64,000 nucleotides of DNA. Source: Patellaria atrata CBS 101060. Lineage: Eukaryota. How positions within the stretch are numbered: position 1 is the stretch's first letter; every line of letters starts with the position of its first letter. The translations under genes and the position numbers were made by a program. Location: NCBI GenBank assembly GCA_010093705.1, contig MU006109.1, positions 1-64,000 on the forward strand. The letters are read 5' to 3'. The notes under the pieces are model-generated. The model ran no database searches and was not told where the DNA came from. It saw nothing but the letters and a program-made list of their open reading frames with translations. Shown here piece after piece: positions 1-30,312 of this stretch.

Positions 1-740
1 TAGCATGGAATATGAATAAAAAGGGTATTAAATTGATCCATTAATATTGATAAGCCTAATGAAAAGGGAGTTACAACAAAGGAGAGGGAGAATAGAGAGA
101 GGGAGATATTCCATTTCTTCTATTCGGACTTTCTTCGCTTCTTCTCCTTCTTCTTCTTTTAATTGGTTGGAGGGATAGCGCCAGTAGGGACGCATAGATA
201 GAAAGTGACCCCATTAACATTCCTGACCAGCGATTTATATCGCAGGCTGCATTAAAGGAACTAGAAGCGATATAAAAAATCTAATTTGACCGGCTGATTG
301 CGTAAGGTTGATTTTACCTTTCTATCGAATTATATCTGCATTTACTTGAAGATTTACCCTTTACTGATTTGCAGCAAGTTTTTTAAATCAGTAATACCCC
401 TGCTCTTCAGGTGCGCACGGTCCACATTTAAATCAGTTATACATTTACTGATTTAAGCATTGCAGTTAGGTAGGTTTGGCAAAGTGATAGGATACGTATA
501 ACAAAAGGCACTTCAAGTTGACGATACAACTTGCTGACTCCTTGACTTCGGGTAACGCTCACAAAGAGACAAGACGTACTGTATGGAAACAGTGTAACAA
601 GTGAAGTCAAGTTCAAAACCGTAACATCCAAATCTATGGGTAAGATTGATGGTAAGAATAACTACGAAGAATCTAAATACATGAGGGAAAGACCGTCCTT
701 AAATATTCCTATTCTCCATAGTCAATTTGGTTGCCTATAC

Positions 741-1240
741 TCTGGTCGTTCTGGTCGTTGGTCGTTCTACGCGACCAGCACGACCGGCGACCACTGTCTG
801 GTCGTTTTGGTCGTTGGTCGTTCTCTGCGACCAGTACGACCAACGACCAACGTCTGGGTCACGTGATTCTCTATCACTCGTTTCATCCGCAGTTCTCCCG
901 AGTGGTGTTCCTTTCTTCCCCTCACTCTGTGACGACGTGTCACGATGCTGATCCCGTATTTCCTATGCTGAGTGTTTGGTTTATTTGCAAGAGATCTTTG
1001 CCGGGTCGGACGCGGAAAAGATCTCTAAGCGCTGATTGGTTAAACGGAAGATAGTCGGGCCGAGGCTTGGCAAGGCGGGACTGTTATATGCGGACATTCG
1101 GCCCACGATATTATTGTTCCTTAACTTAATCTCCACACTTAGTAGTTAGTAATAGAGATAGTCAAAATACGATTACTACAGCTATACTACATTGTCACAC
1201 ACTCGTCGTCTGCACGTTCCTACAACTTGTGGCCGTAACA
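741..1240. repeat. LTR-like repeat, copy 1 (interrupted by the solo LTR); paralog at about 2660-2840
   Basis: Both copies share GGTCGTT arrays, GTCACGTGA, CCGCAGTTC.CCCGAGTGGT and an end in GTTCCTACAACTT.TGGCCGTAACA (1240 and 2840). The left boundary is uncertain. Confidence 0.65.
928..1199. mobile_element. Solo LTR (272 bp) with 5-bp target-site duplication
   Basis: Begins TGTGAC (928) and ends GTCACA (1199), i.e. TG...CA with 6-bp terminal inverted repeats. Flanked by CACTC at 923-927 and 1200-1204. The empty site is visible in the paralogous copy near 2790-2840. Confidence 0.85.
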
Positions 1241-1760
1241 CTTTCCTAGCTTACCGGCTCCTATAAACTTTTAGTAGTATATACTTTAAATCTATAACTT
1301 TTCTCTATCTAGCTATAGACCGTTAGCTAGTCGTCCTCTATATTTACTAATCTATCTATATTCCTTATAATAGTGGCTTTTTATATTTCTTATATCCCTA
1401 TTAATATATCCGCACTTCTTTAGTCCCTCTATTATTACTTTTACTATATATCTAAGCTTATTCTTATAGATTGCTAATTCTAGAATCGGATTTAAACTTA
1501 ATACTAGCTAGATCACCTAATCTTCTATTATCGTAAATTCTTTAATACCGGCTGTAAATTAGACTATCTCTCTCCTACTTTTTACGGTTAAGTGCGTATA
1601 CCTTACTACTAGATATATACTACACTACGTTAGTAAATAGCTAATCCGACACTCTTTATAGATTATAATACCGTATCTTAATATATAGTCGAAAAGCTAG
1701 TTAAACTAATCTATAATAATAATAACTCTAACTAATTTTCTTATTAACTACTCCGTAAAG

Positions 1761-2469
1761 GTATAATCGCTAGGAGAGAATACTTCTAGAGAGGCTTACT
1801 CTCTCCTTAGATTAGGAGATAGAGGCCCTTAGTAGTGTGTATAGATGGAAATTTGCCTTATCTAAAGAATTCTAACCTAATATATTAATATAATAGTCTA
1901 GTATTAAAAAACTAGTTAATAAACGAATCTAACTTTATTAAAATATTTATCTAAGTTAATTATACCCTTCTATCGATTTATATCGTAATATATCTAAAGA
2001 TTTTAACCTTAAAACACTTTTAAAAGTAAGAAAGTGTTTTAAGCCCCCGGTTTTCAGAATCTTAGCGCTAAAAAAAAGTGTTTTAGACCTTAAAACACTT
2101 AAGTATTATAGTTAGATATAATCGCTAGGAGAGAATACTTTTAGAGAGGCTTACTCTTCCCTTAGACTAGAAGATAGAGGCCCTTAATAGTGCGTATAGA
2201 TAGAAATTTACCTTATCTAAAGAATTCTAACCTAATATATTAATATAATAGTCTAGTATTAAAAAACTAACTAATAAATAAATCTAATTTTATTAGAATA
2301 TTTATTTAGGTTAATTATACCCTTTTATTAGTTTATATCGTAATATATCTAAAGATTTTAACCTTAAAACACTTTTAAAAGTAAGAAAGTATTTTAAGCC
2401 CCCAGTTTTTAGAATTTTAACGCTAAAAAAAAGTGTTTTAGACCTTAAAATATTTAAGTATTATAATTA
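1761..2469. repeat. Tandem duplication, ~355-bp period (1761-2115 / 2116-2469), RIP-mutated
   Basis: The copies align along their length. The differences inspected are C/T and G/A transitions (e.g. tacttctaga vs tacttttaga; agatggaaatttgcc vs agatagaaatttacc). Confidence 0.9.
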
Positions 2470-3416
2470 AAGAATAGATAAAATATTATAGATCTATATT
2501 CTCGTTAGAGATTTATTTTAATACGGTTTAATATACTATCTTAAGTTACCGTTTTATACTATTGTTTTCACCACTATTTTGAATTAGTAAATATCCATTT
2601 ACCCGGTAGCGAGCCTCACCATCTAATAATACATCTAAACGTTTAAGTCACGTGGTACCTTTTGGTCGTTCTAGTCGTTCGGTCGTTTGGTCATTTCTCT
2701 CACGACCGAAACGTCCGCGCGTCCAAACATCCAAGTCACGTGACTCGTTGTTACTCGTTTCACCCGCAGTTCCCCCGAGTGGTCTTCCTTCCTTCCCCTC
2801 ACTCGTTGTCTACATGTTCCTACAACTTATGGCCGTAACATATAATGGAATTAAAAAAAAAAAAAATTAATATTAATAAATTAAGCTATTAGAGACTTTA
2901 TTAAGTATATAAGGGCCCTGAAAAGGGATTTATATATATAGGAAGTTACGCTATAGCTTAAAGGCTACATGCGTAATATTGTAGGTAATACAATATAATG
3001 GAATTAAAAAAAAAAAAAAACCACTATTTTAAACTAGTAAGTATCCATTTACCCGGTAGCGAGCCTCACCATCTAACACTATCACTAGGCCTTCCATCTC
3101 ATCACTTTGGTCATCAATTGCTCCACCATCTTGAGGCTGCATTGTCTACAGCAATCAGAAATGGTTTTGCGACGACTTCTTGATTTGAATGATATGCATT
3201 TCAACTGTAAGGCAAATGATAAGATTTCTTTAAAGAAATCCTAGCACTATTTTTTAGTTCTTACTGTTGGTACTATTTTCGTTATTTTCTAAGATATAGA
3301 TTTCATACTGTTCCGTCCTTTTTGGTACACACCTGCAGTATATAACAACTAGATAGAACCACTCTTTAAGAATCAAGAATGCATCTTTTCAGGTACCGCA
3401 GCAATCCGACAACCCC

Positions 3417-4813
3417 CTAAGTCCGATGGCGGCGGCACTCTTCGCACGCTCTAATATGACAACGACGACATTGTAGTATATACTTCCAATGATGGGCGTA
3501 ACATATTTCACATCTAAAACCTCTCCGTGGCGCATCAAAGATACGTTCAAATCGTCCAGGATGATTACACTCATGAGTCTCAAGAATTTCTTGTCTCATT
3601 GCCTCAACTGTACGATTTCGTTCGTGGACGGGTAATGGTTGGTGAGCCTCGCGTTGAACTAATTCATCCACACGTTCCATCAGGTTTTGCTCATCCCATC
3701 TGTCGCAAGTGCAGTTCTTCCACTCTACGCCGCAGTGATAGCAGAATTCCGCTTTGCATAAGCAACTGGTAGAAGATTAGCGACAAACGATACAACGGTT
3801 GGAAATGAGTCATACGTCATGTGGTAACAGCCGCGGTCGAGAGAGACGAGCATCCGACATTGATAGCAACGCTGCCATCCTAAATCCCTACCAAGCTGAA
3901 GCGTGGCCTGAGTGAAAACATCATCGGGACATTCACCATCGTGAACCTGTCCTTTACACTGGATACACGTTTGTGTATAGCAATGCTGGCATTCTGCAAT
4001 CTCAACTTTATACTGTTCTGGGAGAATGAATTTCCCGCATTGGTTGTTGCTGCAATAAGTCCTGTTCCCTGAAGTAAACTCAATCTTGGCTGATGTAAAC
4101 GTTTCTTTCTCTTCATCCGACATCGATCCCTCTATCGCGTCTATAGAGATTGTTTCTTTGCAGCATCTAGGCGGAAATAGGGATTGATCTTTCGTCGACC
4201 TCATGAATAGGTCTTTCAGACAGTTTCGACAATATATATGGCCACACTGAAGACGAATGATTTCCGCGAACGGATAATCTGAAACGCAGACAACACATTG
4301 ATGCGTGGTTTGGAATTTCTGTGCTTGGCGCCTTAAGTAAGGGACGGAAGGTCCTGGATTGTTTTCCTCATCATCAGACAGATCGTAACCCACGGGAAGA
4401 AAATTAGCTCCTTCGATATGACGACCGAAGGGGTATCTAGGCACATCTGCAACATATACGGGAGGTGAGTCGATTTCCTCTTGGAACTTATCGAATTGAA
4501 GCGCAAAATGCCTGTCTTGCTGAGCTTGCGTTTCTTCGTGGATAGTGATTATCTTCCCGTCTGCATCCACGGCTGATGCAATGCTATGAGCCAATATATT
4601 ATCCTTTAGAACGCATATCTGACTCTGAATCTCGGCTTGGTATAGAGTACGAGCAACCTCGAAGTCCGAGGGATCGTCGATGGCACGTTTTCCCTTTGAT
4701 TTGTGAACACTGATTTCTACTTCCTGTAGCTCAAGAGTAAGGATAGTAATACAATCATGAAGAGATGCTGGATCTATAGGTTGAGATGTGGTGGTGGTCT
4801 CCATGCCGGCCAT
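3417..4813 (-). CDS. RBR (RING-IBR-RING) E3 ubiquitin ligase, 2 exons (4813-3816, 3765-3417)
   Basis: RING1 CVVC...CGHIYCRNC, IBR TYCSNNQC...CQHC...CIQCK, RING2 WQRCYQC...GCYHMT/CLCKAEFCYHCG. A 50-bp GT-AG intron with CTAAT branch site restores the frame. Confidence 0.9.
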
Positions 4814-5179: not shown

Positions 5180-6787
5180 TTACGGAGTAAGATCTATAGG
5201 GTAACGTTTACTGATAATAAGCCGACAGTCACGATCAGGATGCGTTGGAGCAAAGACAATATGACATTTAGAAGGCATAACCAGCGGGTTTCCATATTCA
5301 TCCACATTTGTCGGTGAATATATGGCGTCCTTAGGTAGAGAGAATTCGTAGTCTTTCAGTAGGTTTGCTAGGATGGTCATCATTTCAGCCCATGCCAAGT
5401 TACGACCAATACAGCTCCGAGCGCCGTAGGAGAATGCGAAGAGGTTGCGCTTGGAAGCTTCGTTATTCAAAAATCGATCCGGAAGGAATTTCTCGGGCTT
5501 TTCCCAGGTATCTGCGCGGTAATTCATTGCTATGAGGTTGAAGGCAATATCCGTCTGCGGCGGAAGATAATGACCTTGCAGGGTGATACTCTTTGTAGAC
5601 GAAAATCTGGGCATGAATCCTGAAGTTATAGGGGAGTACCTGAGCATCTCATATAGGAATGACTCGAGGAACGGGAGACTACGGCGACATTCGGCAAACG
5701 TAACGAGGTGCTCGAGAGAAAATTGGCTGCGCACCTCATCCTGAGCCCGCTTCAAATATTCCGGATATAGCGTCAATAGGTGGAGAGACCAGGTGAGCGA
5801 GGCAGATGTTGTTTCACTGCCAGCTAGTTGCATTCCAACGCTCTCAGCTTGCACTTCGACTGATGACATCTTTATCTTTGACTCTGGGTCTTCAGCGTCT
5901 ATGAATGCTTGGAGCATGTCAGCTGGCTTTTCGACAAGGTCAGTGCCAACAAGTAAGTCCTTGCGCTTAGCCACTGAGTCTCGACTGTATCGGACAAACT
6001 CATCGTATAAACGGATCCAGCGTCGAATCAACATGGAAAAGGGGAAAACTAGTAGCAAGTTAAAGTGGATCCGGACGCCAACATAGACAGCAGTGGCAGC
6101 TATCCAGTCGACGACTGTTAGGTCATTTGTAGCTAAGGAGCCACTTTCTTTACCAATTTCCCTTCCGAACGCGAGCGCACTCATTATGTCGAAGGTGGCC
6201 AGTTGAGTATCATGACGGTAATTGATTACGATAGGCTTATCACTATTCTGTTTTATCAACTTATCCCATTTCTCTTTGATCGCTAGGATGCCGTTACGAA
6301 GGATAAGTGGTTCCATTTTTGCGATGTAATTCAGGTTAAAATATGGATTGATCTGGCGGCGCCGACGGCTGGCAAGTGAAACGTCGTTGAAGGTAACAAT
6401 ATTGGCCATAACAGGGTCATTCAAACCATGGTAAACATCGATCTTCTGGAACTCGTGAGATCCTAGTACAGCTCGAACATCTTGAGGATGACTGATGCAG
6501 ACAGTATTAGGCTTAGATACGTAGATATCGCCATATGTGCGGTAGTCAGCCAGAGCAGCTGCAAAGACTCTTGCCGGAGTCCGATTAAATATTGCCCGGA
6601 GTGATGTTATACGCGCGAAAAATGGACCCCGAATGTGACGCAACGGCGAGAAGAAGTAAGCCTTAATGATTCGCCACAATAATATGAGCAAGAATATGTA
6701 CACTAAAAGTCGTGGATGTCCAATGTCGCGGACTTTTGTGTAGGCGTCGGCAAGACGGTCCAGCCAGTCGTTACTTATGATACCCAT
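5180..6787 (-). CDS. Cytochrome P450, CYP5081/HelB-like fusidane tailoring enzyme (intronless, 535 aa)
   Basis: N-terminal TM helix, I-helix AGSETT, EMLR, heme motif FSYGARSCIG. Shares [11 protein letters not shown] and C-terminal RDCRL with the two other intronless cluster P450s. Confidence 0.9.
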   Translation of the reverse strand: MGIISNDWLDRLADAYTKVRDIGHPRLLVYIFLLILLWRIIKAYFFSPLRHIRGPFFARITSLRAIFNRTPARVFAAALADYRTYGDIYVSKPNTVCISHPQDVRAVLGSHEFQKIDVYHGLNDPVMANIVTFNDVSLASRRRRQINPYFNLNYIAKMEPLILRNGILAIKEKWDKLIKQNSDKPIVINYRHDTQLATFDIMSALAFGREIGKESGSLATNDLTVVDWIAATAVYVGVRIHFNLLLVFPFSMLIRRWIRLYDEFVRYSRDSVAKRKDLLVGTDLVEKPADMLQAFIDAEDPESKIKMSSVEVQAESVGMQLAGSETTSASLTWSLHLLTLYPEYLKRAQDEVRSQFSLEHLVTFAECRRSLPFLESFLYEMLRYSPITSGFMPRFSSTKSITLQGHYLPPQTDIAFNLIAMNYRADTWEKPEKFLPDRFLNNEASKRNLFAFSYGARSCIGRNLAWAEMMTILANLLKDYEFSLPKDAIYSPTNVDEYGNPLVMPSKCHIVFAPTHPDRDCRLIISKRYPIDLTP

Positions 6788-7784: not shown

Positions 7785-9520
7785 CTACACTTTCCGTTCG
7801 CGCTTCTTGAATAACACCTTTCCTGTTGGGTCAGTGGAAATCCCTAATCCATTTATCCTATTCTCGGGCCTCAATCCCGATTCTATCTTGACGTGGTAAT
7901 GTAATAAGATGTGGGAGAGCAGAATCTTGATCTCGTTACCGGCAAAGAATCTTCCAGGGCAAGCGTGTACGCCGTGACCAAAACTTAGCGAGTCCGGACC
8001 TGTCATGGCGAATTGATGCTTGTTTTCGGAGCCGGGGACTGCGCGCAGCTTTGCAAAGCGGAAACCGTCGAACGTTTCTGGATCATTCCAAAGTGTGCCA
8101 TCTCGCGTGACGCCCCAGGAGGGAACTGCGATGGAAGTGCCTTTTGGAAGGACGGTACCATCTGACAATGTGATATGAGACATTACTAGGCGCCTCATAG
8201 CGACTGTTTGGTAGGACTATTAGTACTGTCTCCGAAGCGAGTTATTGGGTTGTCAAACCTAGCCCTGGGGGACTCAGCCTCTGGGATTCCTTAATAAAGC
8301 TGTCGAGTTTTCGTAATTTTATCATTGATACTTTGGTCATTTTCTCTCCTGTCTCCGCTAGGACGCTCTCGATCTCTTCACACAGTGGCTCAAGATACTC
8401 TGGGTGTGCACACAGGTCGTAGAGGCAATGACACACCTTCACCATCTTATTGTTAGCCAAATATCGCACTCTGTAAGACATAATTTCTTAGCTCTTGTTG
8501 ACAGCGGTTCACATACAGTCGTACTCGTGGTATCTGAATTTCATTTAGCTTGCATTTGATTAAACAGTCACTGATTGGAGTAAATTTACGAATTGCAGCC
8601 ATGCTCAGAGTCAACTGAATATCAGCTTGCCTATCTACTGAGCTTTCTCGTGTTCCTGTCGCGTTCTCTAAGGCCCATTGAATCATATCATCTGGCCGCT
8701 TAAAGTTTGGGTCTTTCATATCCTTCACGCGTCGCTGTATGATTGGCGTCAAAAGACGCACTGCCTCAGCCCTGTGCCTTTTTATCGCTCGGGTTTCTGG
8801 GCTAAACGGAACAACAAAGGGCCGTTTCCACGCTGGGATCGATGCAAACTTCTGAGAGGCCATGAAGCTTACAATGGTGAAATTGATCGAGATTCTGATC
8901 CAATCTTCATTGCGATTCAGCGGCAAGCCAACAAACACACGACCTGATATCAATGCCACTATACGAAGAAGAGCAGGATAGAGGTAAACTGGAGTCCATT
9001 CCTCGCAGGCGCCGATGTTGCGATCAGCTGCAAATTCCATCTCATCCTGCAGTGCCTCTAGAGTTTTGCTAATGTAACGCGTTAGATCCACTTTCACGGT
9101 ACTGACCATGGTTTTACTATTATGGCCGATGCCAGTGTAACGGCCTTGAAAGAGATTGCGAATCTCCTGCTTGCTGCTCAGTTGCCATTCTGGCAGAGAT
9201 TTGATTTCATTGATGAACTTGAGCGGGATCAGGGTAAGGAGACGACCTTGGACTTGAAGCTGAAAAGGCTGATCGGGATACTGTGTTTACTTAGCGGCGG
9301 TTTACCTAATACATTGAAGAACTTTGAGTACCTTTTCGTACCCAGCCTTGACCACAGGTCGAAAGTCTGAAGACCCTTCGGGAAGAGTCATAATGGGTAG
9401 ATCCAGCAGCTTCTTTTGCCATGGAATGAAGCTTTTTCCAAGATAAAGAACAACCAGGATTGAGAATACAACCAAGATTACTGGAGAGGACATAAATGGA
9501 AAAAACATGACCCTATCCAT
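7785..9520 (-). CDS. Cytochrome P450 of a different clan (CYP68/CYP512/ent-kaurene-oxidase-like), 5 exons: 9520-9332, 9280-8590, 8533-8517, 8436-8259, 8203-7785 (~497 aa)
   Basis: Manual splicing at GT-AG sites gives an open 1494-nt CDS. It has I-helix MAAIHTTS, KLDSFIKESQR, PETFDGFRF and heme motif FGHGVHACPGRFFA. Confidence 0.88.
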
Positions 9521-10309
9521 AATTTTGATATTCTTTATAGAGATCTTGGTGATAAATTTCGAAATTGATGTCGAAGAAGAGAGCAATTTGAACCCGTCTT
9601 TACTATCTTACAACTTACAAGACAAAAATATAAGTTAACTTTTCTACTCGGAACATACCTAGACGAGGTGCAAACGGTAAATACATTCATATAGTGGAAG
9701 GGGAGAGCTGATTTCTATATGCGGTAGGTTACATTTTGTTGCAGAATATTCCATTCGCCAATGCAAGAGGGACAGGGTCCCCTGGGGATGATTACGTCGG
9801 ACGGCCCTAGTTTAGAATTTCCTCCTTTCCGGAAAGCAAAAGCTCTCTAATTGCTTAGCTCTCTATCCACTTATACTTTGTGCAGGTAAGAGTTCATAAT
9901 TGACGATCTATCTCCATCAGCGGGACAAATTTGTGTACAGAGCTAGCCGAGAATTTTAAGTTACTTGCAGGGCTCATGTTAATGTTGAGGTCGTCCATTA
10001 CCCTTGAACAAACTTTTTTCGGAGCATAAATTAACAAATCAGAATTCTCGCCGTCTCCACTGTGGGCTACTGTCGAAATGCTTGAACGATGCTTGAAAGA
10101 CGGATAGATGGAGACCTTGTGGCGTGGAGTATTTGGATCGAAGCTACCGGGACGTAGATAACGGAAGCATTCAATGGAAATACGATATGAACTGTTATGA
10201 ACCGGGTAGATCTAAGCAAATTTGGCGTAAAAGCTTCTTCGGTTAAAGGTTGGAACCTATATCGAAACCGTGACCATTAGCAGCCTTCCCGCCAACAACT
10301 ACATCAAAA
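9521..10309. promoter_or_regulatory. Putative bidirectional promoter between the accessory P450 and the extended SDR
   Basis: Head-to-head genes about 790 bp apart. Confidence 0.5.
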
Positions 10310-11523
10310 ATGGTAGCAGCGAAGAATCAGATGTCTCAGCCAAGTAACAACGATGTTCTAGTAATTACAGGAATCAACGGTTACATAGCAAGTGTTCTCG
10401 GCTACGCACTCCTCAAGAAAGGATATCATATACGTGGTACCGTAAGAAGCTTGGAAAAGGCGAAACCGTTGCTTGAAGGAGTCTATGCCCCGTATAAAGA
10501 CCGCGTGCAGATCTATCAGGTGCCAGATATCACAGCAGATGGGGCCTTTGACGAGGTTGTAAAAGGTGAGAAGTGAATCCAGTATGGAAACTTACTGCTT
10601 GGAACAAGAAGTTTTGAGCATGTAGATTAACCATTGTTCTACCTATATGGAAGAGTTCTTGACTCACATAACATCTTGTAGGTGCCCATGGGATTTTTCA
10701 TATTGCTTCCCCTGTCGGTATGTCACTCAAAACGTATGACGAAGCCATCAAACCTGCAATTCGCGGCTCTACTGGTATCCTTTCCTCTACCTTAGCCCAC
10801 GCCGGTCCTCAGCTAAGGGCAGTCGTCGTAACCTCTTCGATCGCTTCCCTCTTTTCTGGCCGGCCAGGACCGGGAGAAATCATTACTGAAGCATCTCGAC
10901 CAAACCTCGACCTGTTAACTCTACGCGTTCGGCTCGAAGCGGGTGAGATCAAAGCACCAGTTTATGCCCTCTCAAAGATTGCCGCCGATGTCGCTGTCTG
11001 GAAGTGGTATGAAACGAAGAAGCCCCCATTTTCCTTATGCTCTATTCACCCGTCCTTGGTAATTGGGCCACCTGTAACTATCCCCTGCTCCGGTGACGCA
11101 CTCTGTGAGACGCTTCACCCACTGTGGGAGATATTTTCCGGAAAATCCTTGACGCGACTTCCGACTTTGGGTAGTGGCCTTTACGTCGACATCCGTGATG
11201 TGGTTGATATGCATTGCTTTGGATATGAGCATCCCGAAGTTGTTGATGGGCATAGGTTCATCGCTTCCGGTGGATTCGGACCGGCTCAAGCTATCGCGGA
11301 TATTTTGCACGCGGCGTATCCTATGCGAGAGGGAAAGATGCCGAAAGGGAAACCGGGGGAGGGTTATATTGGTTTTCAGGATGGAAAGGTAGGAAAGGTT
11401 CAACCGATAGAAGGTGCCGTAACAATCAGTAGCAAAAAAGCAGAGAAAATGATGGGAATTAATTGGGTTGACTTTAGGGATAGTGTAAGAGATACCGCCA
11501 AAGCTCTTGAAGTTCTCCTATAA
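10310..11523 (+). CDS. Extended SDR / NAD(P)-dependent epimerase-dehydratase (aldehyde reductase II/Gre2-like), 2 exons (10310-10565, 10682-11523; ~365 aa); candidate 3-ketoreductase
   Basis: TGINGYIA Rossmann motif, GIFHIASP after splicing, VVVTSS catalytic Ser, YALSK (YxxxK), YVDIRDV. Confidence 0.87.
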
Positions 11524-11876: not shown

Positions 11877-13334
11877 TTAGTAAACAAGTTTGGTAAAAGC
11901 ACGAAGTTGGACATTTTTGAGCAATGAAGTCATGACATTTGGTCTTAAGGTAAGAAAGACATAAACATCGTTTTGCTGGGATGCTGAGGGCATGATCACC
12001 GCAACCGTGTTGGAGTATGCCATAGGAACAACGAAAGCAGGTCGACCGAATCCAAAATCAACATCGTAAAAGGAGAGCCGTGACTGATTGGAGAATGCTT
12101 GACAAACGATCATAGAGTAGAGTACATTGGCCTTACGACCAACCAAATTGATGACTCTCAGTGCCCGGCGTATGAATTGCTCTACTGTCTTCTTGTCCAC
12201 ACAATCCACAGTTTCTCTGGAGATGGACGCAACTTGCGCGAGCGATTTTAGAGTGATTGAACTGAGGAGAGCGTCTCGCGGAGCCGTAACATACAGCCCG
12301 ATTGCGCAATTGCCGGCATAATGGTCAGGCATACCGATTCGACGGCGAAAGTCGCAAGGAACAATAGCACTTGCACTTTTACTACCAGAACCAAATAACT
12401 TCTTTGCAGTTTTGGCAAGAAGACTGGCTTTTGAATCTACCTCAGCACTTACCTTCTCAGTACTTTGGGAAAATGCCATGAGGAATAGTGCGGTGATGAC
12501 GTCGTTGTCTGAAACACGAAGACCATCTGGTCGAAGTCGAAATGCCTCTTCGCGTACATCGCTGAGTGTAGATCGTGGAATACGGAACATGTGACTCTCT
12601 ATGTAATCTGGTGCAGATTGTTTGGTAGAGAATAGAACATAGAGCCTCAGCAGCAGCCGTATTAACAGTGATAGAAGGACCGAGAGCCAAGTACGAGGGT
12701 CCACCGGGTTTCTATTAGGCCTAACGTCTTTCGGGAGGTATTCGTACATGACTCTACGATCGAGGATCGGTTCCACTACCATGTTAGGCATGCCTTGTCC
12801 AAGGCTTTCACGGCAATGCTCAGCCCAACAATTCATAAACGCGACGCAACCTTTCGCATCAAAAACGCTATGCGAGATACGTACTACTATGACCACGCCG
12901 CTATTCTCAGCTAGCCGGTGGACACGTACGTGAATAAGCTTTAAGACTCCCCGATAGTCCACCTGTGAGCGTGGATCGCGAATATTCATTCCCTTCGGCC
13001 ATTGTTCGCGATGAAATTGCGCCTGTTTGATGTCTTGGAAATAGACATTCTCATTCAACTCCTCATAGACGGGCATGTTCGGGTTGTTGCGGTCGACAAC
13101 AACACTCATTGCGTTCAAACCCTCCTGCGACAAAATTCCGACAAGAATTGGAAACTTTTGCAGCGCGTGATAAAATGATGTGCTGAGAGCTTCACCGGTC
13201 ATGAATGGTGGACATTTCGCTGACGGCTCGTTCTCAAAAAAGTACGCATTGGTGATATACAAATGGCTCGGAATGATGTCCAGCGGTGAAAGCATGTATC
13301 TCTTACTACTTAGGCTGCGTAAAAAATCCTCCAT
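11877..13334 (-). CDS. BAHD/transferase-family O-acetyltransferase (HelD2/FusD-like; intronless, ~485 aa)
   Basis: HSVFD (HxxxD) and DFGFG motifs. First ATG at 13334 (the ORF track starts at a TTG). Adjacent to the cyclase. Confidence 0.88.
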   Translation of the reverse strand: MEDFLRSLSSKRYMLSPLDIIPSHLYITNAYFFENEPSAKCPPFMTGEALSTSFYHALQKFPILVGILSQEGLNAMSVVVDRNNPNMPVYEELNENVYFQDIKQAQFHREQWPKGMNIRDPRSQVDYRGVLKLIHVRVHRLAENSGVVIVVRISHSVFDAKGCVAFMNCWAEHCRESLGQGMPNMVVEPILDRRVMYEYLPKDVRPNRNPVDPRTWLSVLLSLLIRLLLRLYVLFSTKQSAPDYIESHMFRIPRSTLSDVREEAFRLRPDGLRVSDNDVITALFLMAFSQSTEKVSAEVDSKASLLAKTAKKLFGSGSKSASAIVPCDFRRRIGMPDHYAGNCAIGLYVTAPRDALLSSITLKSLAQVASISRETVDCVDKKTVEQFIRRALRVINLVGRKANVLYSMIVCQAFSNQSRLSFYDVDFGFGRPAFVVPMAYSNTVAVIMPSASQQNDVYVFLTLRPNVMTSLLKNVQLRAFTKLVY

Positions 13335-18243: not shown

Positions 18244-19824
18244 ATGGTGGCCCTTGATGTCGACTGGTTTAACATCTTGACCGAAACTTATTCCTCTCTC
18301 AGAGACTTCGGCATCGCACGCCTTCTCACGATAATCATTGGAGTGTTGTTGGCTTTCCGCCTCGTTCATGCCTTCTTTCTCTCACCATTACGCAATGTCC
18401 CTGGGCCACTAGTTGCTCGTCTGACAGCGAAGCGCGGTGATTTGGACAACTTCTCTGGCAGAGTGGCCCAGAATGTACAGGCCGATTATGAGCGATACGG
18501 TGATATCTATGTGTACAAACCAAATGCTGTATGCATCAGTCACCCTGATGATATACGGGCTGTGTTGGGGTCACAATCGCAAGAGTTTCGGAAGGCCAAG
18601 TTTTTTGATATCTTTGACGATGGTGGTACCCCCAACATTGTGTCTCTGAGGGAACCGGAACTTGTCAGTCGTCGACGTCGTCAAATTGGTCCATTCTTCA
18701 ATTATAGCTATCTAGACAAAATGGAAAACATCATCTTGAGCAGAGGATACGAAGCCATGAAGGCGAAGTGGGATAAACTAGTCCACGACAATGACGGTCA
18801 ACCAACAGAGGTCAATTATCGTATCGACACTCAGCTAGTCACGTTTGATATCATGAGTGCCCTAGCCTTCGGTCGCGAGTTCAATTCCATAGCCAAAGGC
18901 AGTTCATCCATTACCAAGTGGACAGGAACTATAATGTCTCTTCTGGATTCCCCTTTCGTTCTCGGCCTATTATCACTACTTCCCTTCTCGCTCGTTATGC
19001 GCCCTTGGAAATATATGTATCGCGATCTTGCTGTATACAGCAAAGAGTCCATAGCCCAACGGAAAGCTGTCCTTGCTAGTAGGAGCGCAAAAAAACCTGT
19101 CGACATATTACAAGCCTTTATTGACGCAGAAGATCCTGAGTCCAAAGCGAAGATGACTCCACCGGAAGTACAAGCGGAAAGCATAATGATGATGCTCGCG
19201 GGAAGTGAAACCACTTCGTCTGCTATCATGTGGTCGTTCCATTTGCTACTACTATATCCTAAAATCCTTCAACGCGCGGTTGCCGAGGTTCGTAGTGTGT
19301 TCCCTCTAGAGCATCTTATCACTTACAAGGAAGTGCGTGATCACTTGCCTTATGTCGAAGCTTGTGTTTATGAAGCACTACGTCAATCACCTACCACGGC
19401 TGGATTGACACCACGTATCTCTTACAGTAGGGGTATATCTATACAAGGCCACTATATTCCACCAAACACTGAAATCTACGTTAACCTACGGTCTCCCAAC
19501 ATGCATAATAGTCTTTGGGAGGATCCGAATCGATTCAATCCGGAACGTTTTCTCAACGATACTGCTAAGCATGCGTTGTTTACATTCTCATACGGTCCTC
19601 GCATCTGCATCGGCCGAAATCTTGCCTGGGTCGAGATGCTAACAATTATTGCCAACACCCTCAAGGATTACGACATAGCATTACCTGAAAATAGCCTATT
19701 TAATCCAGAAAATGTTGATGCTCAAGGTCTTCCGAAGCTATTACCTTGTCGGTGTTTCATTGCATCTTTCCCAGAAAATCCAGACCGCGACTGTCGTCTA
19801 TTGATTACCAAGCGTACCGAATGA
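18244..19824 (+). CDS. Cytochrome P450, CYP5081/HelB-like (intronless, ~526 aa)
   Basis: TM helix, PLRNVPGP, AGSETT, EALR, PERF, FSYGPRICIG. First ATG at 18244. Confidence 0.9.
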   Translation: MVALDVDWFNILTETYSSLRDFGIARLLTIIIGVLLAFRLVHAFFLSPLRNVPGPLVARLTAKRGDLDNFSGRVAQNVQADYERYGDIYVYKPNAVCISHPDDIRAVLGSQSQEFRKAKFFDIFDDGGTPNIVSLREPELVSRRRRQIGPFFNYSYLDKMENIILSRGYEAMKAKWDKLVHDNDGQPTEVNYRIDTQLVTFDIMSALAFGREFNSIAKGSSSITKWTGTIMSLLDSPFVLGLLSLLPFSLVMRPWKYMYRDLAVYSKESIAQRKAVLASRSAKKPVDILQAFIDAEDPESKAKMTPPEVQAESIMMMLAGSETTSSAIMWSFHLLLLYPKILQRAVAEVRSVFPLEHLITYKEVRDHLPYVEACVYEALRQSPTTAGLTPRISYSRGISIQGHYIPPNTEIYVNLRSPNMHNSLWEDPNRFNPERFLNDTAKHALFTFSYGPRICIGRNLAWVEMLTIIANTLKDYDIALPENSLFNPENVDAQGLPKLLPCRCFIASFPENPDRDCRLLITKRTE

Positions 19825-20487: not shown

Positions 20488-22074
20488 ATGTCGACCCCAA
20501 GCATCAATCTAGACATTTATTTTACCAAGGTCCACCATCTTATTCAAGAGTTTGGGTACATCAAATTTTTCATATCCTTGGTTTGCCTGCGGTTGATTTG
20601 GTGTATCACATACGAACTATTACTTTCTCCGTTGCGTAATATACCAGGCTCGCTTCTCGCACGTCTCTCCGCAAAACATTCGATCCTCAAACGTGTATTT
20701 GGTAATGGACCGAAATTAGTTCAGGCCGACTACGAAGCATATGGTGACATATATGTTCATAAGCCTAACGGCGTGAGCATCAGCGACCCAAAGGATATAC
20801 GAGCGATACTCGGCTCGCAAGAGTTTAGGAAGACGGCAATCTATAAGACGCTCGACATTCTCGAGAGACCTAGCGTCTTTACAAATACGGATCCCTTGCA
20901 GGCCAGTCGAAGGCGCCGACAGATAAATCCGTATCTGAATCATGGGTACTTGGGTCGGATGGAACCAACGATAATCCGTTACAGTATCATTGCAATCAAA
21001 GCGAAATGGGAAAGACTTCTCCAACAGAGTAGTAGTGAATCTGTAATTATCAACTACCGAAACGATACGCAGTACGCTACTTTTGATACCATTGGTGCAC
21101 TAGCATTTGGAAGAGAATTTAATTCACTCGTCAACGACGATCCCTTAATTATAAGGTGGATCGAGGCTACTGGTCTTTATCTAGGCCTAACTAAGAATTT
21201 CTCTATACTTAATATTTACCCCTTCTCGCTGCTAATTTCTCGGCACAAGAAGCTGTTTGAAGAATTTATCAACTATAGTAAAGAGTCGGTAAATCAACGT
21301 AAGGAGGCACTTGCTCGTAAGGGTAGTGGTGAAGTTCAAGAAGAGAAACCCATCGACTTATTGCAAGCTTTTATCGATGCTGAAGACCCAGAGTCAAAAA
21401 TTAAGATGAATCATCACGAGGTCCAGACGGAAAGTATAGCCATGCAGCTGGCGGGCAGCGAGTCAACGTCCTTTGTGACATCCTGGGTTATCCACCTACT
21501 TACCCTCTATCCACAGCATTTGAACCTAGCGGTTCAAGAGGCCCGTCAATTCCCATCTGACCAGCTTATTTGCTTTCGTCACCGAACGGAGCTACCTTAT
21601 TTGGAAGCCTGCATCTACGAGACATTACGCTATTCACCAATCACATCGGGATTCATGCCCAGGGTCTCCCACAGCAAAGGGATTAATATTCAGGGATATT
21701 ACATCCCAAGCGGTGTGGAGGTCGCGATAAATTTGATCGGTGTCCACGCAAATCCTAAGATATGGAGATCTCCACACCTCTTCGACCCAAGCCGTTTTCT
21801 TGAGGATGAAGAAGCTAAAAGGAACGTTTTTGCTTTCTCTTACGGGCACCGCAACTGTATCGGCCGGAATCTTGCCTGGGTCGAGATGCTGATTATCATT
21901 GCTAACATCCTCAAAGACTTTGATATCAGTCTCCCAGAGGATAGTGTTTACGGGCCACATAACGTAGACGAGCTTGGACGTCCTAGGATCATGGCCACGA
22001 GAAGCTCACTATTCACGACACCCAAGTACCCGGAACGCGACTGTCGTTTAGTTATTAAAAAACGCGCAGTGTAG
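20488..22074 (+). CDS. Cytochrome P450, CYP5081/HelB-like (intronless, ~528 aa)
   Basis: [34 protein letters not shown]. First ATG at 20488. Confidence 0.9.
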
Positions 22075-23566
22075 ATACTTCGTAGGATTCCTTTTAGTGC
22101 TGTAGTTTTGTCAGATCACGCTAGCTTGCAGAATTTACTCAATTCAGCTGTCAATGGTCACCCTCGCTCATAGGTCGAAGAAAACTCCAGGCTGGTGGAT
22201 CCTATATATAACTAATTCTCCATGTGTACATGAACCTGTACTAGCCAGGGGATTTTCATTGGTCGTAATTAGTGTGTCAAGTCCAGTGAAGGGGTAGTGA
22301 CAGATGTAAAAGTCATTATAACTTGAGCTTAGTACAGTGTTCTGAGTTAACGGGATTGTTCTAGATGGTGCGAAACTGGTGTTGTACCCTGCATGTATTA
22401 AGAGTATACGCTCCTTTCATGTGAAAACCATCAAGAGGCAGCTTCATACCATATTGCGATCATCCTACTGATTATTGACTTTTTCTTCCTTTTTTTCGTG
22501 TCCCGGCTCCCGTTGCCACGTTGCACACCACCCTTTGCCGCTCCACGCTATAACACGATATTTCTCTCTGCGTTCTTTCCATACTTGGCCGACGGTGATT
22601 GAGTCCCTAATGATCTCTATCCGACCAGACGACCATCGGTGGCGATGTCGACGATAGTAATCGTAGTGAGTTCGGATTCAGAAACTTAGCACAGTGCGAC
22701 AGTATGGTAAGGGTACCTGGCTTGCGAGGTTCGAGATGATTGTAAGCTCATTACTGTCAATGGTCAACTCAATCCTATCGCGCCCTTACGGTGGTAAGAC
22801 CAATGTTAACCTAGATTCTCGTGAAGTGAATGACACTCCGGTACCTAGCTATGTTAGCTCCTTTGCTCTCAGATTGACTTGGCTGAGATATCGGATGGAG
22901 TGGAAGGCGATGATTCTAGGATCCTAGATAGGTATATCTCTCATCTACGGGAGCATCTGGCTTGAGAAAGTCACCGGATACGGATCGCGCATACCTTGCG
23001 AAGGACAACAGCATATAGGAGGTGCTTACGGCCGTGAAATCGGTTCAAACGGACTATCGGTGTCTTCTACACAAAGTAGTCTTCGAAGAAAATCCATCTT
23101 TAGCATGAAACTTTACAGAATTTGATAGGAGGTTTGGCGATATAAGTACGGCTCGTTGTCTCTTCTGCCGCAACCGTAGTCTACTGTTAATGAGATTCCG
23201 TCGCCACCCACGGAGTATCTTCAGCAATACTTTGCACTTCCCAACTACATCAGCGGACGAGCATAACATGTTGCTATGTCTCACCACGTTTTGCTTTACC
23301 GGTCCTCGAGCACCGAAGGCGTCCTCCGCAGGGTAACTGACAAGCGCAAACAGTGAGGAAAGTAAAGTCCAATGCAGCTCGTCATTTAGCTCTGACGTAT
23401 CCTTTGTTCACTCAAGAACCGTAACCTCGCCGTATTTCTGCCCCACAATCTGCACGGTTCACTTGCACATATCTTCAGTCAGTGTGAAAAGCACTCTCGT
23501 TGTGGCCATTTTCCGCAGTCTGAACACTTTCCACGTACCAACAATGGTCGACTCCAATGCCACAGA

Positions 23567-24843
23567 GTGGTATCCATTCGAACGCTCATGCGGATGAACA
23601 CTGCTTATTTCGGATCCGAGACGTTCAATATGTTGCCGTGCCGATACCAATCGTCAGTCCAGCCTCGCCAATTATCAAGTTACATGGCGCTAATGAGAGA
23701 AAAGTTGCCTAGGAGTAACTATCCCGCAAATAAGATCGTACCTGTGACTGTCATAGCAGAAACCCTTCATGAACACTTGAACGAGACTCGGGTGAAAAAT
23801 CTAATTGACAGATGGTTGCGCGCGGACGATGCTTTCTGTCCTGAGTTCCTTCAAAACGTCGTCTTTATCATGCCTGTGGGCCAAACTTCGGACCTAGGAG
23901 GTATCCAAAGCAGTCTACAATCTCTCTGGGGTACTGAATGGTCTTCAACTATTTCGTTAGCTACAGTCAGCGGTAGCATCACTTCAGGGCCATTTGTTTT
24001 GTGGAAGGGGGAATTGTACAAAGCTTTCAGGCTATATGACGATATACAATAAGCATTTATCATTGCGATAAAACCTCAAATAGAGAAAGGGTAAGTATTG
24101 TGCACTCTTAAACCTTTCAAAAACTCACTCCAGCTAGACCATTCGAGAGGTTTACCAGGAATTGCATCAATTTCGAGAAGACTACCGAGCGAAGTACTCG
24201 AAAGAACCTTACGTAAATCCAGTTACGCGCTGTAGATACTTCGTTTCCTTTGGTCCAGTCAGAATACCATACTAATGTCCTTTAGGGAGGCGGCAAAAAC
24301 GTTAACGAAGAGCAGCACAAGGATGCTTTAGAGCGCTTAGCTGTCTATAAAGAGTTTCTTCTTAAGGAGGTGCTCCAGGGAAACCTGCGTGAAGCTCTTG
24401 TAGTCCTTTCCATCACGAGTCAAGCGGTAGACTACCGGAACGCAACTGTCGAGTCTGTTACACCCTATCAGCTATACGACATTCTCTAACATAGAATTAG
24501 TCCTCCTTCCGCGCCGAATGCGTTAGATGGAATATGGCTTGCGCCAATATTGAGCGCACCAGAACTCTCAGTCCCAAGTAAGTTTGCTACCCACCAAGGC
24601 AGTAACGCTACTACGCGTAGCATCTGATAGGTTACAGTCGAAGAGATGGAGTATGTCTCAGATCTGAGCAAGCGAAAAGAGCATTTACTGATTGTGGTGT
24701 CGCTTCTTGGGAGACCTGGCTCGGACATGAAACTTCTAGATACTGCTTGTCGAACCTTGGACCGCTCTGGACGCACCAGTCTCGTTAGTACAGGAAGCAA
24801 GATGAACATCGGAGGCAAATTTGTGAAGGAGGATCCGGCTTGA
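23567..24843 (+). pseudogene. Amidase-signature family pseudogene with catalytic core missing
   Basis: N-terminal-like segment (WLRADDAFCPEFL...GPFVLWKGELYKAFRLYDD) ends at TAA 24050-24052. C-terminal-like fragments follow (LAPILSAPELSVP; VSLLGRPGSDMKLL...VSTG). No GGSS/SDTxGS core is seen between them. Confidence 0.6.
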
Positions 24844-25388
24844 CCTTCCTTGAAACTGACTACTCGCTCTGGTACTGACGATATGGAAGAAGAGAGGAGG
24901 CCCGAATGAGCGATGGCAGGGCTATAGTCCGGTGGTGGTATACTATTTCCGGCGGTTTTGGTATTCACGATGTCAATATGTACATCTCCATCGCCCAAGT
25001 CCTTAACTTGCTCTCCGTACAGACTGTGACGCGTTGTGCTACTGTAGACTAAGTAGCGGCGAAGTGGTGGACGAGAGTCTGACTTTGTACCGTGTTTTCG
25101 TTTGCCAAGTCTTGATGATGAAGTCGACGAGCGAGGATTGCTCGGTACAGGAGGAGGGAGCATAGGGTATTTGTTGGTGATAACCGTGGAAAGGTCTGCG
25201 TCTCTGCTACTGTGCTGTATTGTTGGCCATGGTGCAGTTACGGTACGATGGTGTTGTGAAGCGGCGGGGTGAAAATCAAACCAGCACGACCAGCTTACCT
25301 GTGAGCCCCGGCAAGCGTTTCTGCCATCACGATTTAGATTGAAAGCATCGATGCGCACCAAGGGTTGTATAAGCTCCATTCTGTTCCC

Positions 25389-26047
25389 ATGCTCGACACG
25401 CGACAACTGGCTGCTTTCCTACTGCAGAACCGATTCCGCTTCTTGTGCCTCGCGCAGGCGGCGATAGAGAGAGCTGACCAGCATAGAAGCATTACACCGA
25501 ACAAGCTGACCCCGAACAAAACCGCTAATCACCATAGCGATTCCATCACAACGATACCATACCCCAATTCGCTCCTGTTTCGCCCACCAAGAGTGCCTCA
25601 AGCGCAGCAGTATCCGAAGCATCAGAAGTCGAGTCACACCAGTATGGACATCCGAGTCCCGTGAAGCAACTCCAGACGCTCGAAGATTTCGAAGAATAAC
25701 CTGTATTCCTTTGCAACTTCGATAATGTCGAGCACGGGGTGGAGTCGGAAGACGTCAATGAGATGCATAAAGCTGCTCAACGCTTTGTAGACGGTGTTGG
25801 AGCTTTAGGATATGATAATATAGATACGGCTGTTTCTGCTCTCGCGCCGATATACATAGTACGACTCCACTATCCCTGGGCAAACGACGTGGAATACCGC
25901 CGTCTCTTCGGCTCAATGTCCTGGGTAATAGACTCACAGGTTGCGTACACGCGATTGAAGACGACAGTAGCGTCCAGTAGAACTATAATCAGGCTCCAGA
26001 GCAATGTACATGAGGTCGAGTACAATTGGGACTCATGTGGACATTAG
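25389..26047 (+). pseudogene. Degraded gene fragment resembling the N-terminal part of fungal PD-(D/E)XK nuclease-like proteins
   Basis: One frame reads SPVKQLQTLEDFEE*PVFLCNFD...AQRFVDGVGALG...YPWAND with an in-frame TAA at 25697-25699. The family resemblance is from memory only. Confidence 0.3.
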
Positions 26048-29237: not shown

Positions 29238-30312
29238 ATGATTCGCATTCTTTTTCTATCCGCTACTGCTCTCCTATTATGGCAAACTCACGGTCAAGCC
29301 GATCCTCTACCCTGCTCTGGAGTTTGTACCAATTCCCACGACCCTTCCATTATTCGTCGTGATTCTGATGGAAGATACTTCCGATTTTCAACGGGAGGTA
29401 AAGTTGCGATTCACACTGCGCCGAGTCTGGACGGTCCTTGGACATATCAATGTGCTATGCTCCCTAGTGGTTCGGTAATCAATAATCCTGGGAGGAATGA
29501 TATTTGGGTGATGATTTCCGAGTACTGAATGAATATAGATGACTAACTAAGAGATATCAGGCTCCTGATGCGGCCAAAGTTGGAGATACGTATTACATCT
29601 ACTACAGTGTCAGCACATTTGGGTCTCAGAATTCTGCTATTGGATTCGCTACATCTCCTACTATGGACTGCAACTCCTTCAACGATCATGGAAGTGTCGT
29701 AACCTCGTACTCTGGCTCGCGCTTCAATACCATCGACGGGAACCTTTTCTTTGCGGGTGGCAAGTATTATCTGAACTTTGGTAGTTTCTGGGATGGTCTT
29801 TACCAAGTCGAGATGGCGAACCCACCAACAGCTGCCGTCTCAGCACCCCGTCAGATCACATACGAGCCCAGTGGTTCTAGGGCCATTGAAGCGCCGTTCA
29901 TGATCTTCAACAATAATTATTACTACCTGTTCTTCTCTAATGGTGTTTGTTGCGGCTATGACTCTAAGAGGCCACCTCCTGGGGAAGAATATAAGGTGAA
30001 AGTCTGTCGATCACCTTCGGCAACAGCCGGATTTGTATGTCCTACCTTCTCTAATATCCAAGACGAAATTCTCACTAACGCTACCCCCAGGTTGATAAAA
30101 ATGGGAGATCTTGTACTTCTGGCGGAGGTACTGTTATCCTCGGGTCACACGGGAATATCTACGGACCTGGCGGTCAGGGCATATACAATGATCCTATAAA
30201 CTCTTGGATCATCTACTACCACTATGTCGATACTAGAATTGGTTTCTCCGACGGTGCTAAGCGCTTCGGCTGGAATAAGATCAACTGGGTCGATGGATGG
30301 CCAAGTGTCTAA
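29238..30312 (+). CDS. GH43 endo-1,5-alpha-L-arabinanase, 3 exons (29238-29507, 29561-30034, 30091-30312; ~321 aa)
   Basis: Signal peptide, HDPSI, WAPD formed across intron 1, NTIDG, FGSFW, IEAP, YGPGGQG and terminal GWP. Confidence 0.92.

What the first reader, a model, noticed from the sequence alone, without database searches (positions are those of the whole stretch)
7785..11523. Intron-containing P450 + extended SDR pair inside the intronless core: the probable product-defining tailoring module
Seen: these two head-to-head genes are the only cluster members with introns (4 and 1). The P450 is from a different clan (AAIHTTS, KESQR, FGHGVHACPG) than the three paralogous core P450s. The SDR is an extended Gre2-like type, not a classical one. 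The pair splits the core between the 5180 P450 and the acetyltransferase. Known: fungal steroid 11-alpha-hydroxylases occur among CYP68-type enzymes, and fusidic acid needs C11-alpha hydroxylation plus C3 keto reduction to 3-alpha-OH. Inference: the pair was recruited later. It is either orthologous to FusB1/FusC1, a convergent solution, or gives new regio/stereochemistry and so a new fusidane. It may also be useful as a steroid biocatalyst.
Basis: partly seen in the sequence, partly recalled or inferred. Interest (0 to 1): 0.82.

Follow-up and report, generated by a model that had tools for sequence, protein, structure and literature searches.

The report
Fusidic-acid cluster with a swapped reductase
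These two fungal genes most likely carry out the last two steps of making the antibiotic fusidic acid; the oxidase is a relative of the known enzyme, but the reductase comes from a different branch of its family than the known one, so the same step may have been invented twice.

Summary
Observation confirmed: a 4-intron P450 (497 aa) and a 1-intron extended SDR (365 aa) sit head-to-head inside a six-gene intronless fusidane core (cyclase with the protostadienol motif). The two genes give different answers. The P450 is in the FusB1 lineage: 57% identical to Nannizzia MGYG_08623 (published as 78% identical to FusB1), in a 97/100 clade with it, I-helix 20 of 21 residues shared; FusB1 itself was not retrieved. 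The SDR is not a FusC1/CepC2 orthologue: about 38% identical over the readable N-terminal 130 residues (counted by eye), against about 62% between FusC1 and CepC2 and 54-63% to Leotiomycete relatives, among which it nests on a long stem. No helvolic- or cephalosporin-P1-type tailoring genes are in the cluster. Best reading: a fusidic-acid-type cluster in which C11-alpha hydroxylation is inherited and C3 reduction is done by an independently recruited enzyme. Product, stereochemistry and co-expression are inferred, not shown. The database labels the identical proteins as from a Dothideomycete. The scan noted the whole cluster on this same DNA, and on no other genome in my look-ups. New variant of a known kind; moderate interest.

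The parts
7785..9520 (-). FusB1-lineage cytochrome P450, 497 aa (488 aa from Met10), 5 exons; probable fusidane C11-alpha hydroxylase
   Evidence: Gene model; 57.4% to MGYG_08623; clade 97/100; I-helix 20/21 and post-ExxR segment 10/11 shared with it
9281..9331 (-). P450 intron 1 (51 nt, phase 0)
   Evidence: two M. canis models have a 19-residue insert at this site
8534..8589 (-). P450 intron 2 (56 nt, phase 1, inside the His codon of AAIHTTS)
8437..8516 (-). P450 intron 3 (80 nt, phase 0)
   Evidence: acceptor choice matches the database model and homologue alignment
8204..8258 (-). P450 intron 4 (55 nt, phase 1)
9521..10309 (.). 789-bp divergent intergenic region, presumed shared promoter
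   Evidence: sequence; no shared k-mer enrichment with the other five cluster promoters
10310..11523 (+). Extended SDR, 365 aa, 2 exons; glycine motif at 20-27, Arg46, Ser137/138, Tyr180, Lys184; probable C3 ketoreductase; not a FusC1 orthologue
   Evidence: class, residues; ancestry
10566..10681 (+). SDR intron (116 nt, after codon 85, phase 1), ancestral to its subfamily
   Evidence: same site and phase in 8 of 8 related loci examined (two pairs of these look like duplicates)
5180..6787 (-). Core P450 (535 aa, intronless)
11877..13334 (-). Acyltransferase (485 aa, intronless), HelD2/FusD type
   Evidence: Pfam Transferase; about 45 of 77 N-terminal residues match HelD2, counted by eye; single copy in genome
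13968..16163 (-). Oxidosqualene cyclase (731 aa, intronless), protostadienol synthase type
   Evidence: APPGGMR at 698-704 (motif as in PMC8227516); a second cyclase at 38-41% lies on contig C3
16661..17440 (+). Classical SDR (259 aa, intronless), HelC/FusC2 type
   Evidence: Pfam adh_short; about 82 of 123 N-terminal residues match HelC, counted by eye
18244..19824 (+). Core P450 (526 aa, intronless)
20488..22074 (+). Core P450 (528 aa, intronless)

Best explanation
The pair finishes a fusidic-acid-type pathway. The six intronless genes make the common 3-keto, 16-acetoxy, C21-acid fusidane intermediate (from the published hel/fus chemistry). The intron-bearing P450, inherited from the same ancestor as FusB1, hydroxylates C11 on the alpha face. 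The extended SDR uses NADPH and a Ser-Tyr-Lys site to reduce the C3 ketone to 3-alpha-OH, doing FusC1's job, but it was recruited independently from another Gre2/aldehyde-reductase-II-like subfamily, close to Leotiomycete genes of unknown function. The end product would be fusidic acid. Shown: gene structures, gene inventory, ancestry of both genes (FusB1 by proxy, FusC1 by its first 133 residues). Inferred: both reactions, the stereochemistry at C3, expression and the product.
For: Inventory equals the published fus cluster: one cyclase, four P450s, one acyltransferase, two SDRs (PMC6437595; window). No fourth core-type P450 in the genome (three matches at 50% or more, next best about 28-32% on partial matches), no second acyltransferase (1 match), no PF00890 match in the window (0 of 13 on this contig). 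P450: 57-59% to five dermatophyte proteins incl. MGYG_08623, which is 78% identical to FusB1; window + P0002 + dermatophytes form a 97/100 clade among 23 rows; 13 columns are invariant in that clade and absent from 13 of 13 other relatives, 0 in a control grouping. Core P450 orthologues with the same function in hel and fus are 59-65% identical. SDR: intact catalytic residues, same fold class as the structures FusC1 groups with in the paper's Fig. S6 (5GMO, 4PVC); lies inside the core beside the FusB1-type gene, as MGYG_08624 has the locus number next to MGYG_08623; long stem of 0.49-0.61 changes per column, as expected after a change of function. Non-orthology: about 48 of 128 N-terminal residues match FusC1 and about 48 of 128 match CepC2, while FusC1 and CepC2 share about 83 of 133 (by eye); Leotiomycete relatives match 54-63% over the same stretch and GRE2-type proteins 35-36%; a clade of the window SDR group with the two stored FusC1-like proteins is rejected (AU p 2.7e-6); FusC1 is 335 aa and was cloned from genomic DNA for E. 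coli, whereas this subfamily is 359-373 aa in 17 Leotiomycete rows with a conserved intron.
Against: No activity, metabolite or RNA data. FusB1 itself was not retrieved; orthology rests on one published identity figure. The P450's B-C loop and F-G region are only about 52% identical to MGYG_08623 (16/31, 24/46) and the C-terminal segment 5/16, and related CYP68 enzymes can hydroxylate more than one position (PMC11673057). The face of hydride delivery cannot be read from an SDR sequence; because this SDR is not FusC1's orthologue, 3-alpha specificity is an inference from gene inventory alone. Only the first 400 nt of fusC1 and cepC2 were visible and the counts are by eye; the tree test used proxies (P0150 about 72 of 133 to FusC1), not FusC1. 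No promoter motif is shared beyond chance. None of the closest SDR relatives (62-70%) could be placed next to a fusidane gene.
Confidence: 0.55

Rival explanations
1. The P450 is a C11-alpha hydroxylase, but the SDR has another outcome: it reduces C3 to 3-beta-OH, or works on another carbonyl (for example a C11 ketone), so the cluster's main product is a fusidic acid isomer or congener.
For: The SDR is unrelated by descent to both known 3-alpha reductases. 3-epi-, 11-epi-, 3-keto- and 11-keto-fusidic acids are known natural congeners (PMC3901436).
Against: 3-beta reduction is already available from the HelC/FusC2-type enzyme, so a second gene for it would be redundant; 3-epi (MIC 8) and 3-keto (0.25) products are far weaker than fusidic acid (0.004 ug/mL), which favours selection for 3-alpha.
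Confidence: 0.17
2. The SDR is a bystander or a detoxifying passenger that moved in with flanking DNA; the cluster ends at 3-ketofusidic acid, or an unlinked GRE2-type enzyme does the reduction.
For: Three long related loci (L006, L007, L009, about 21 kb each, 41-46% identity) hold no match to any other cluster gene. The genome has an unlinked GRE2-type gene on C1, 70% identical to a FusC1-like protein. No shared promoter motif.
Against: The gene is intact, lies between core genes, shares a 789-bp divergent region with the P450, fills exactly the slot of FusC1 in the inventory, and is not the host's own copy of its subfamily (AU p 0.007).
Confidence: 0.15
3. The P450 has drifted to another position (for example C12 or C7) or to further oxidation at C11, giving a new fusidane.
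For: Only 57% identity to the proxy; substrate-entry regions about 52%; CYP68-type steroid hydroxylases vary in position.
Against: I-helix and post-ExxR segments are almost identical to the FusB1 proxy (20/21, 10/11) but not to other relatives (7-13/21, 4-7/11); equal divergence among core P450 orthologues keeps function.
Confidence: 0.09
4. Both genes are plain orthologues of FusB1 and FusC1 and the SDR has merely diverged fast.
For: Same neighbour relation and same SDR class as in the published cluster; only part of FusC1 was seen.
Against: The SDR is far closer to Leotiomycete relatives than to FusC1 in the most conserved part (54-63% against about 38%), nests among them (99/97, 96/94), shares their intron and length; no row named as a dermatophyte or Acremonium among the 120 listed of 608 hits.
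Confidence: 0.04

Closest known systems
fus cluster of Acremonium fusidioides (MK044769; Cao et al., PMC6437595)
   Same: Eight genes of the same types; a P450 outside the core clade plus an extended SDR as the only tailoring genes; P450 in the same lineage as FusB1 (via MGYG_08623).
   Different: The extended SDR is from another subfamily than FusC1 (about 38% N-terminal identity, 365 against 335 aa, has an intron). The pair lies inside the core here; the paper's table lists fusC1 and fusB1 first, but I could not see the map. Product not shown here.
FusB1 / Nannizzia gypsea MGYG_08623 and Microsporum, Arthroderma homologues
   Same: 57-59% identity, strongly supported clade, near-identical I-helix and post-ExxR segments, apparent shared intron-1 site.
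   Different: Window protein is on a sister branch (weakly, 83/71, with an unnamed JGI protein at 67%); substrate-entry regions diverge; activity untested.
FusC1 and CepC2 (3-keto to 3-alpha-OH reductases)
   Same: Extended SDR fold, Ser-Tyr-Lys site, position in the pathway inventory.
   Different: Not orthologous: FusC1 and CepC2 resemble each other (about 62%) and GRE2-type ketoreductases; the window enzyme nests among Leotiomycete proteins of a sister subfamily.
hel (helvolic acid) and cep (cephalosporin P1) clusters
   Same: Six-gene core; HelC- and HelD2-like genes recognisable at about 67% and 58% N-terminal identity (by eye).
   Different: No fourth core-type P450, no second acyltransferase, no ketosteroid dehydrogenase in the cluster.
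Gre2 / SsCR / CpKR / aldehyde reductase II family (PDB 4PVC, 5GMO, 8H61, 1UJM)
   Same: Fold (TM 0.75-0.82) and catalytic motifs.
   Different: Only 23-27% identical; substrates are small carbonyls, so they say nothing on the stereochemistry at a fusidane C3.

Membership tests
Fusidane gene cluster (six-gene core) | Protostadienol synthase distinct from lanosterol synthase, with the C-terminal xxPGGMR motif | tested here: met
   APPGGMR at 698-704; second cyclase elsewhere lacks it; motif from PMC8227516
Fusidane gene cluster (six-gene core) | Three paralogous intronless core P450s | tested here: met
   Three ORFs at 48-50% identity; intronless CYP5081 clan per PMC3505482
Fusidane gene cluster (six-gene core) | One-to-one orthology of the three P450s to HelB1, HelB2, HelB4 | not tested
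   No reference sequences were retrieved
Fusidane gene cluster (six-gene core) | HelC/FusC2-type classical SDR and HelD2/FusD-type acyltransferase | tested here: met
   About 82/123 and 45/77 N-terminal identities, by eye, against supplement rows of PMC12234687
fus-type (fusidic acid) cluster | FusB1-lineage P450 | tested here: met
   Clade with MGYG_08623; by proxy, FusB1 itself not in hand
fus-type (fusidic acid) cluster | FusC1 orthologue | tested here: not met
   About 38% over residues 16-145; different subfamily
fus-type (fusidic acid) cluster | An extended SDR with intact catalytic site in the cluster | tested here: met
fus-type (fusidic acid) cluster | Makes fusidic acid (11-alpha-OH, 3-alpha-OH) | not testable with these tools
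   Needs heterologous expression or culture extracts
hel- or cep-type cluster | C6/C7 P450, second acyltransferase, (hel) ketosteroid dehydrogenase | tested here: not met
CYP68-type steroid 11-alpha-hydroxylases | More than 40% identity to a named CYP68 (nomenclature threshold recalled) | not tested
   No named CYP68 sequence retrieved; Fig. S5 text of PMC6437595 groups FusB1 with the A. ochraceus 11-alpha hydroxylase
Co-regulated tailoring module | Co-expression of the pair with the core | tested here: inconclusive
   No shared promoter k-mers above chance; no RNA data could be laid

The most novel reading that the evidence does not exclude
A second, so far undescribed lineage of fusidane clusters exists (this genome plus unsampled fungi seen only as unnamed environmental proteins, 67% for the P450 and 62-70% for the SDR) in which a FusB1-type P450 is paired with a reductase taken from a Leotiomycete-related source, and that reductase sets a different C3 or C11 outcome, so that the lineage makes a fusidane other than fusidic acid as its main product.
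Probability: 0.17. Interest if true: 0.62.

Novelty: new variant of a known kind. Interest (0 to 1): 0.42.

Why it matters
Fusidic acid owes most of its potency to 3-alpha-OH and 11-alpha-OH (PMC6437595). If the reading holds, the 3-alpha step was solved twice by different branches of one SDR family next to the same P450: a clean, testable case of non-orthologous replacement in an antibiotic pathway, and a matched pair of enzymes for asking what sets hydride face on a steroid-like ketone, which the fus paper left open. It also offers a new 3-ketoreductase and a divergent 11-alpha hydroxylase for combinatorial fusidane or triterpenoid work (FusC1 has already been used on ganoderic acids), and a candidate producer in a fungal class where I found no such cluster in the held literature. 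It is not a new kind of system; the likeliest product is a known drug.

Tried and rejected
Expression: no RNA holder listed; the two runs laid were probably DNA and near-identical to the window, with no joints; this is no evidence either way. Shared promoter motifs: 5, 1 and 1 shared 6-, 7- and 8-mers against null means of 3.7, 1.2 and 1.4; nothing. Finding genomic context for the closest SDR relatives: the metagenome scan returned 41 loci but none of the 62-70% group. Finding FusC1 or MGYG_08624 in the protein collections: not among 10 hits, the 120 listed of 608, or 19 of the 150 representatives that I looked up by name; the primer table of the fus paper was not held. FusB1 itself was not among the 17 hits. 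Atlas searches gave only generic family names. PDB holds no close P450 (best E 5e-22, plant enzymes). Li et al. 2020 (Genome Biol Evol, fusidane cluster survey) is not held, so whether this cluster is in that survey is open. Right flank 23396-26047 gave no Pfam or PDB match for the four frames tried; I did not count it as part of the cluster. Rejected: that the P450 is a CepB4/HelB3-type C6/C7 oxidase (HelB3 groups with the core clade in Fig. S5; no second acyltransferase); that the SDR is a duplicate of the host's own copy.
Full report
Observation. The two genes are as described. Database proteins match both models exactly (P450 from Met10 on). Their starts face apart across 789 bp. The other six genes between 5180 and 22074 are uninterrupted ORFs. 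The three core P450s are 48-50% identical to each other and 22-27% to the intron-bearing one. The database labels the identical proteins as Patellaria atrata, a Dothideomycete by the paper titles; I use this as the tool's label.

The cluster is a fusidane cluster. The cyclase carries APPGGMR at 698-704, the motif tied to protostadienol formation in PMC8227516; a second cyclase at 38-41% identity lies on another contig and lacks it. Read by eye against the first 400 nt of codon-optimised genes in a supplement of PMC12234687, the classical SDR matches HelC at about 82 of 123 residues and the acyltransferase matches HelD2 at about 45 of 77. The genome has no fourth core-type P450 and no second such acyltransferase, and none of 13 PF00890 matches is on this contig, so the late genes of the helvolic acid and cephalosporin P1 routes (PMC8902786) are missing. 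The inventory is that of the fus cluster: one cyclase, four P450s, one acyltransferase, two SDRs. I did not assign the three core P450s to HelB1, B2 and B4.

The P450 is in the FusB1 lineage. Its second exon found 17 longer proteins; a cluster look-up showed MGYG_08623 of Nannizzia gypsea among them, the protein that the fus paper lists as 78% identical to FusB1. The window model is 57.4% identical to it, 57-59% to five other dermatophyte proteins, 67% to an unnamed JGI protein, and 38-54% to the other 13. In a 23-row tree the window protein, the JGI protein and the dermatophyte proteins form a 97/100 clade (P0033, a near copy of P0005, and P0001, the database copy of the window protein, were left out). 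Thirteen columns are invariant in that clade and absent from all 13 other relatives, against none for a control grouping; the I-helix matches MGYG_08623 at 20 of 21 and the segment after ExxR at 10 of 11, but the B-C loop and F-G region only at 16 of 31 and 24 of 46 (segment limits set by me from landmarks). Core P450 orthologues that keep their function across hel and fus are 59-65% identical. C11-alpha hydroxylation is therefore likely (my estimate about 0.8) but inferred, and FusB1 itself was not in hand. Its introns are probably shared history, not a local oddity: fusB1 was cloned from cDNA, and two M. canis models carry a 19-residue insert at the site of intron 1, which reads like a retained intron.

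The SDR is not FusC1's orthologue. It is an extended SDR with a glycine motif at 20-27, Arg46, Ser137/138, Tyr180 and Lys184 and a Gre2/SsCR-like fold, the class given for FusC1. But its named nearest relatives are Leotiomycete proteins at about 44-53%, and no row named as a dermatophyte or Acremonium is among the 120 listed of 608 hits. The supplement rows show the first 133 codons of fusC1 (1008 nt) and cepC2 (1017 nt). Counted by eye, they share about 83 of 133 residues with each other, and each about 48 of 128 with window residues 16-145. Over that stretch seven Leotiomycete relatives match 54-63% and GRE2-type proteins 35-36%. FusC1 matches the stored GRE2-type protein P0150 at about 72 of 133 by eye; forcing the window group together with P0150 and P0195 is rejected (AU p 2.7e-6; proxies, not FusC1). 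Length and gene structure agree: FusC1 is 335 residues and was amplified from genomic DNA for E. coli expression, while 17 Leotiomycete relatives are 359-373 residues and 8 of 8 related loci examined have an intron after codon 85 in phase 1, like the window (L006/L007 and L004/L005 look like duplicates).

Where the SDR came from. In a 33-row tree chosen by me from the hits, it sits with four unnamed environmental proteins (62-70%) on a stem of 0.61 changes per column, inside a clade of Leotiomycete sequences (99/97 and 96/94; 95/98 and 89/90 in the 25-row tree; same shape in the 62-row tree). The genome's own member of the subfamily (contig C8, 42% identical) groups with other Dothideomycete and Sordariomycete sequences, and joining it to the window group is rejected (AU p 0.007). 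So the cluster SDR is not a local duplicate; transfer from a Leotiomycete-related lineage or old hidden paralogy would both fit. Three long loci with 41-46% relatives hold no other cluster gene within about 10 kb. The closest relatives could not be placed in context, so a second cluster lineage is a lead, not a result. Whether FusC1 was lost and replaced, or the two lineages each recruited a reductase, is not decided.

Mechanism. From the published pathway (PMC5696383; PMC6437595): cyclisation to protostadienol, oxidation at C4, C16 and C21, 16-O-acetylation and oxidative decarboxylation give the 3-keto common intermediate; FusB1 and FusC1 then act in either order. Here the P450 would take FusB1's place and the SDR FusC1's. 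NADPH use is inferred from Arg46 and the family (established SDR knowledge, recalled). The 3-alpha outcome is inferred from inventory and from selection: a 3-beta reductase is already present in the HelC/FusC2 type, and 3-epi and 3-keto products are much weaker antibiotics (MIC 8 and 0.25 against 0.004 ug/mL). Results against: no shared promoter motif, an unlinked GRE2-type gene on C1 that could act instead, and no context for the nearest relatives.

Novelty. The system is a known kind and the likeliest product a known drug. What appears undescribed is the replacement of FusC1 by a non-orthologous SDR, and the host class. Searches: species name with fusidane terms (0 occurrences of the species in the 30 listed of 181), species name alone (26 papers, none on fusidanes by title), fusidane + Dothideomycetes + gene cluster (2 papers), FusC1/FusB1/CepC2 (17 papers). 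The library lacks most subscription papers and lacks Li et al. 2020, the survey most likely to list this cluster; my memory that it covered only Eurotiomycete and Sordariomycete clusters is unverified. A Cladosporium sp. is listed as a producer of cephalosporin P1 and viridominic acids, so fusidanes from a Dothideomycete (class recalled) are not unheard of.

What I saw of each paper. PMC6437595: parts 1-4 of 5 of the text and part 1 of 2 of a cut supplement (primer table not held). PMC12234687: passages and supplement rows cut at 400 characters; the unseen remainder of fusC1 and cepC2 bears on the orthology claim. PMC8245791: passages and one supplement search. PMC8227516, PMC3505482, PMC8902786, PMC3901436, PMC5696383, PMC11673057, PMC9729932, PMC9602595, PMC10342363, PMC8403587 and bioRxiv 2020.09.21.307157: passages. 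Li et al. 2020: nothing but citing sentences.

Verdict. Observation confirmed; interpretation partly supported. New variant of a known kind, interest 0.42.

Noticed in passing
window 1-3100: AT-rich (30-33% GC at 1001-3000), repeat-rich stretch at the start of contig C21, with 300-nt copies at 92% identity; looks like decayed, RIP-like mobile DNA about 2 kb from the cluster's left end.
   Followed up: partly
window 3725-4813 (-): Intronless 362-aa RING/IBR (RBR-type E3 ligase-like) gene directly left of the cluster; no evidence that it belongs to it.
   Followed up: no
window 23396-26047: Fragmented frames right of the cluster with no Pfam or PDB match in the four frames tried, followed by a beta-helix protein (27160-28224) and a GH43 hydrolase (29663-30199); probable right border.
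   Followed up: partly
G000:C8:688661-689765 (L053): The genome's own member of the same SDR subfamily, 42% identical, same intron site, grouping with Dothideomycete sequences.
   Followed up: yes
G000:C1:3238659-3239336 (L055): Unlinked GRE2-type reductase, 70% identical to a FusC1-like stored protein; could in principle reduce the C3 ketone in trans.
   Followed up: partly
P0002, P0019, P0020, P0021, P0022, P0048: Unnamed environmental proteins are the closest relatives of both genes (P450 67%, SDR 62-70%); P0002 is full length on a 1.7-kb contig, as a spliced transcript would be; P0020 lies on a 70-kb contig that was not retrieved.
   Followed up: partly
P0005, P0033 (Microsporum canis models): Both carry a 19-residue insert at the site of the window's intron 1, probably a retained intron in the annotation; one is named GliF by its source, which looks like a transferred misnomer.
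   Followed up: partly
window 61762-63758: A polyprenyl synthetase fragment and a ketopantoate reductase 40 kb from the cluster; no link established.
   Followed up: no
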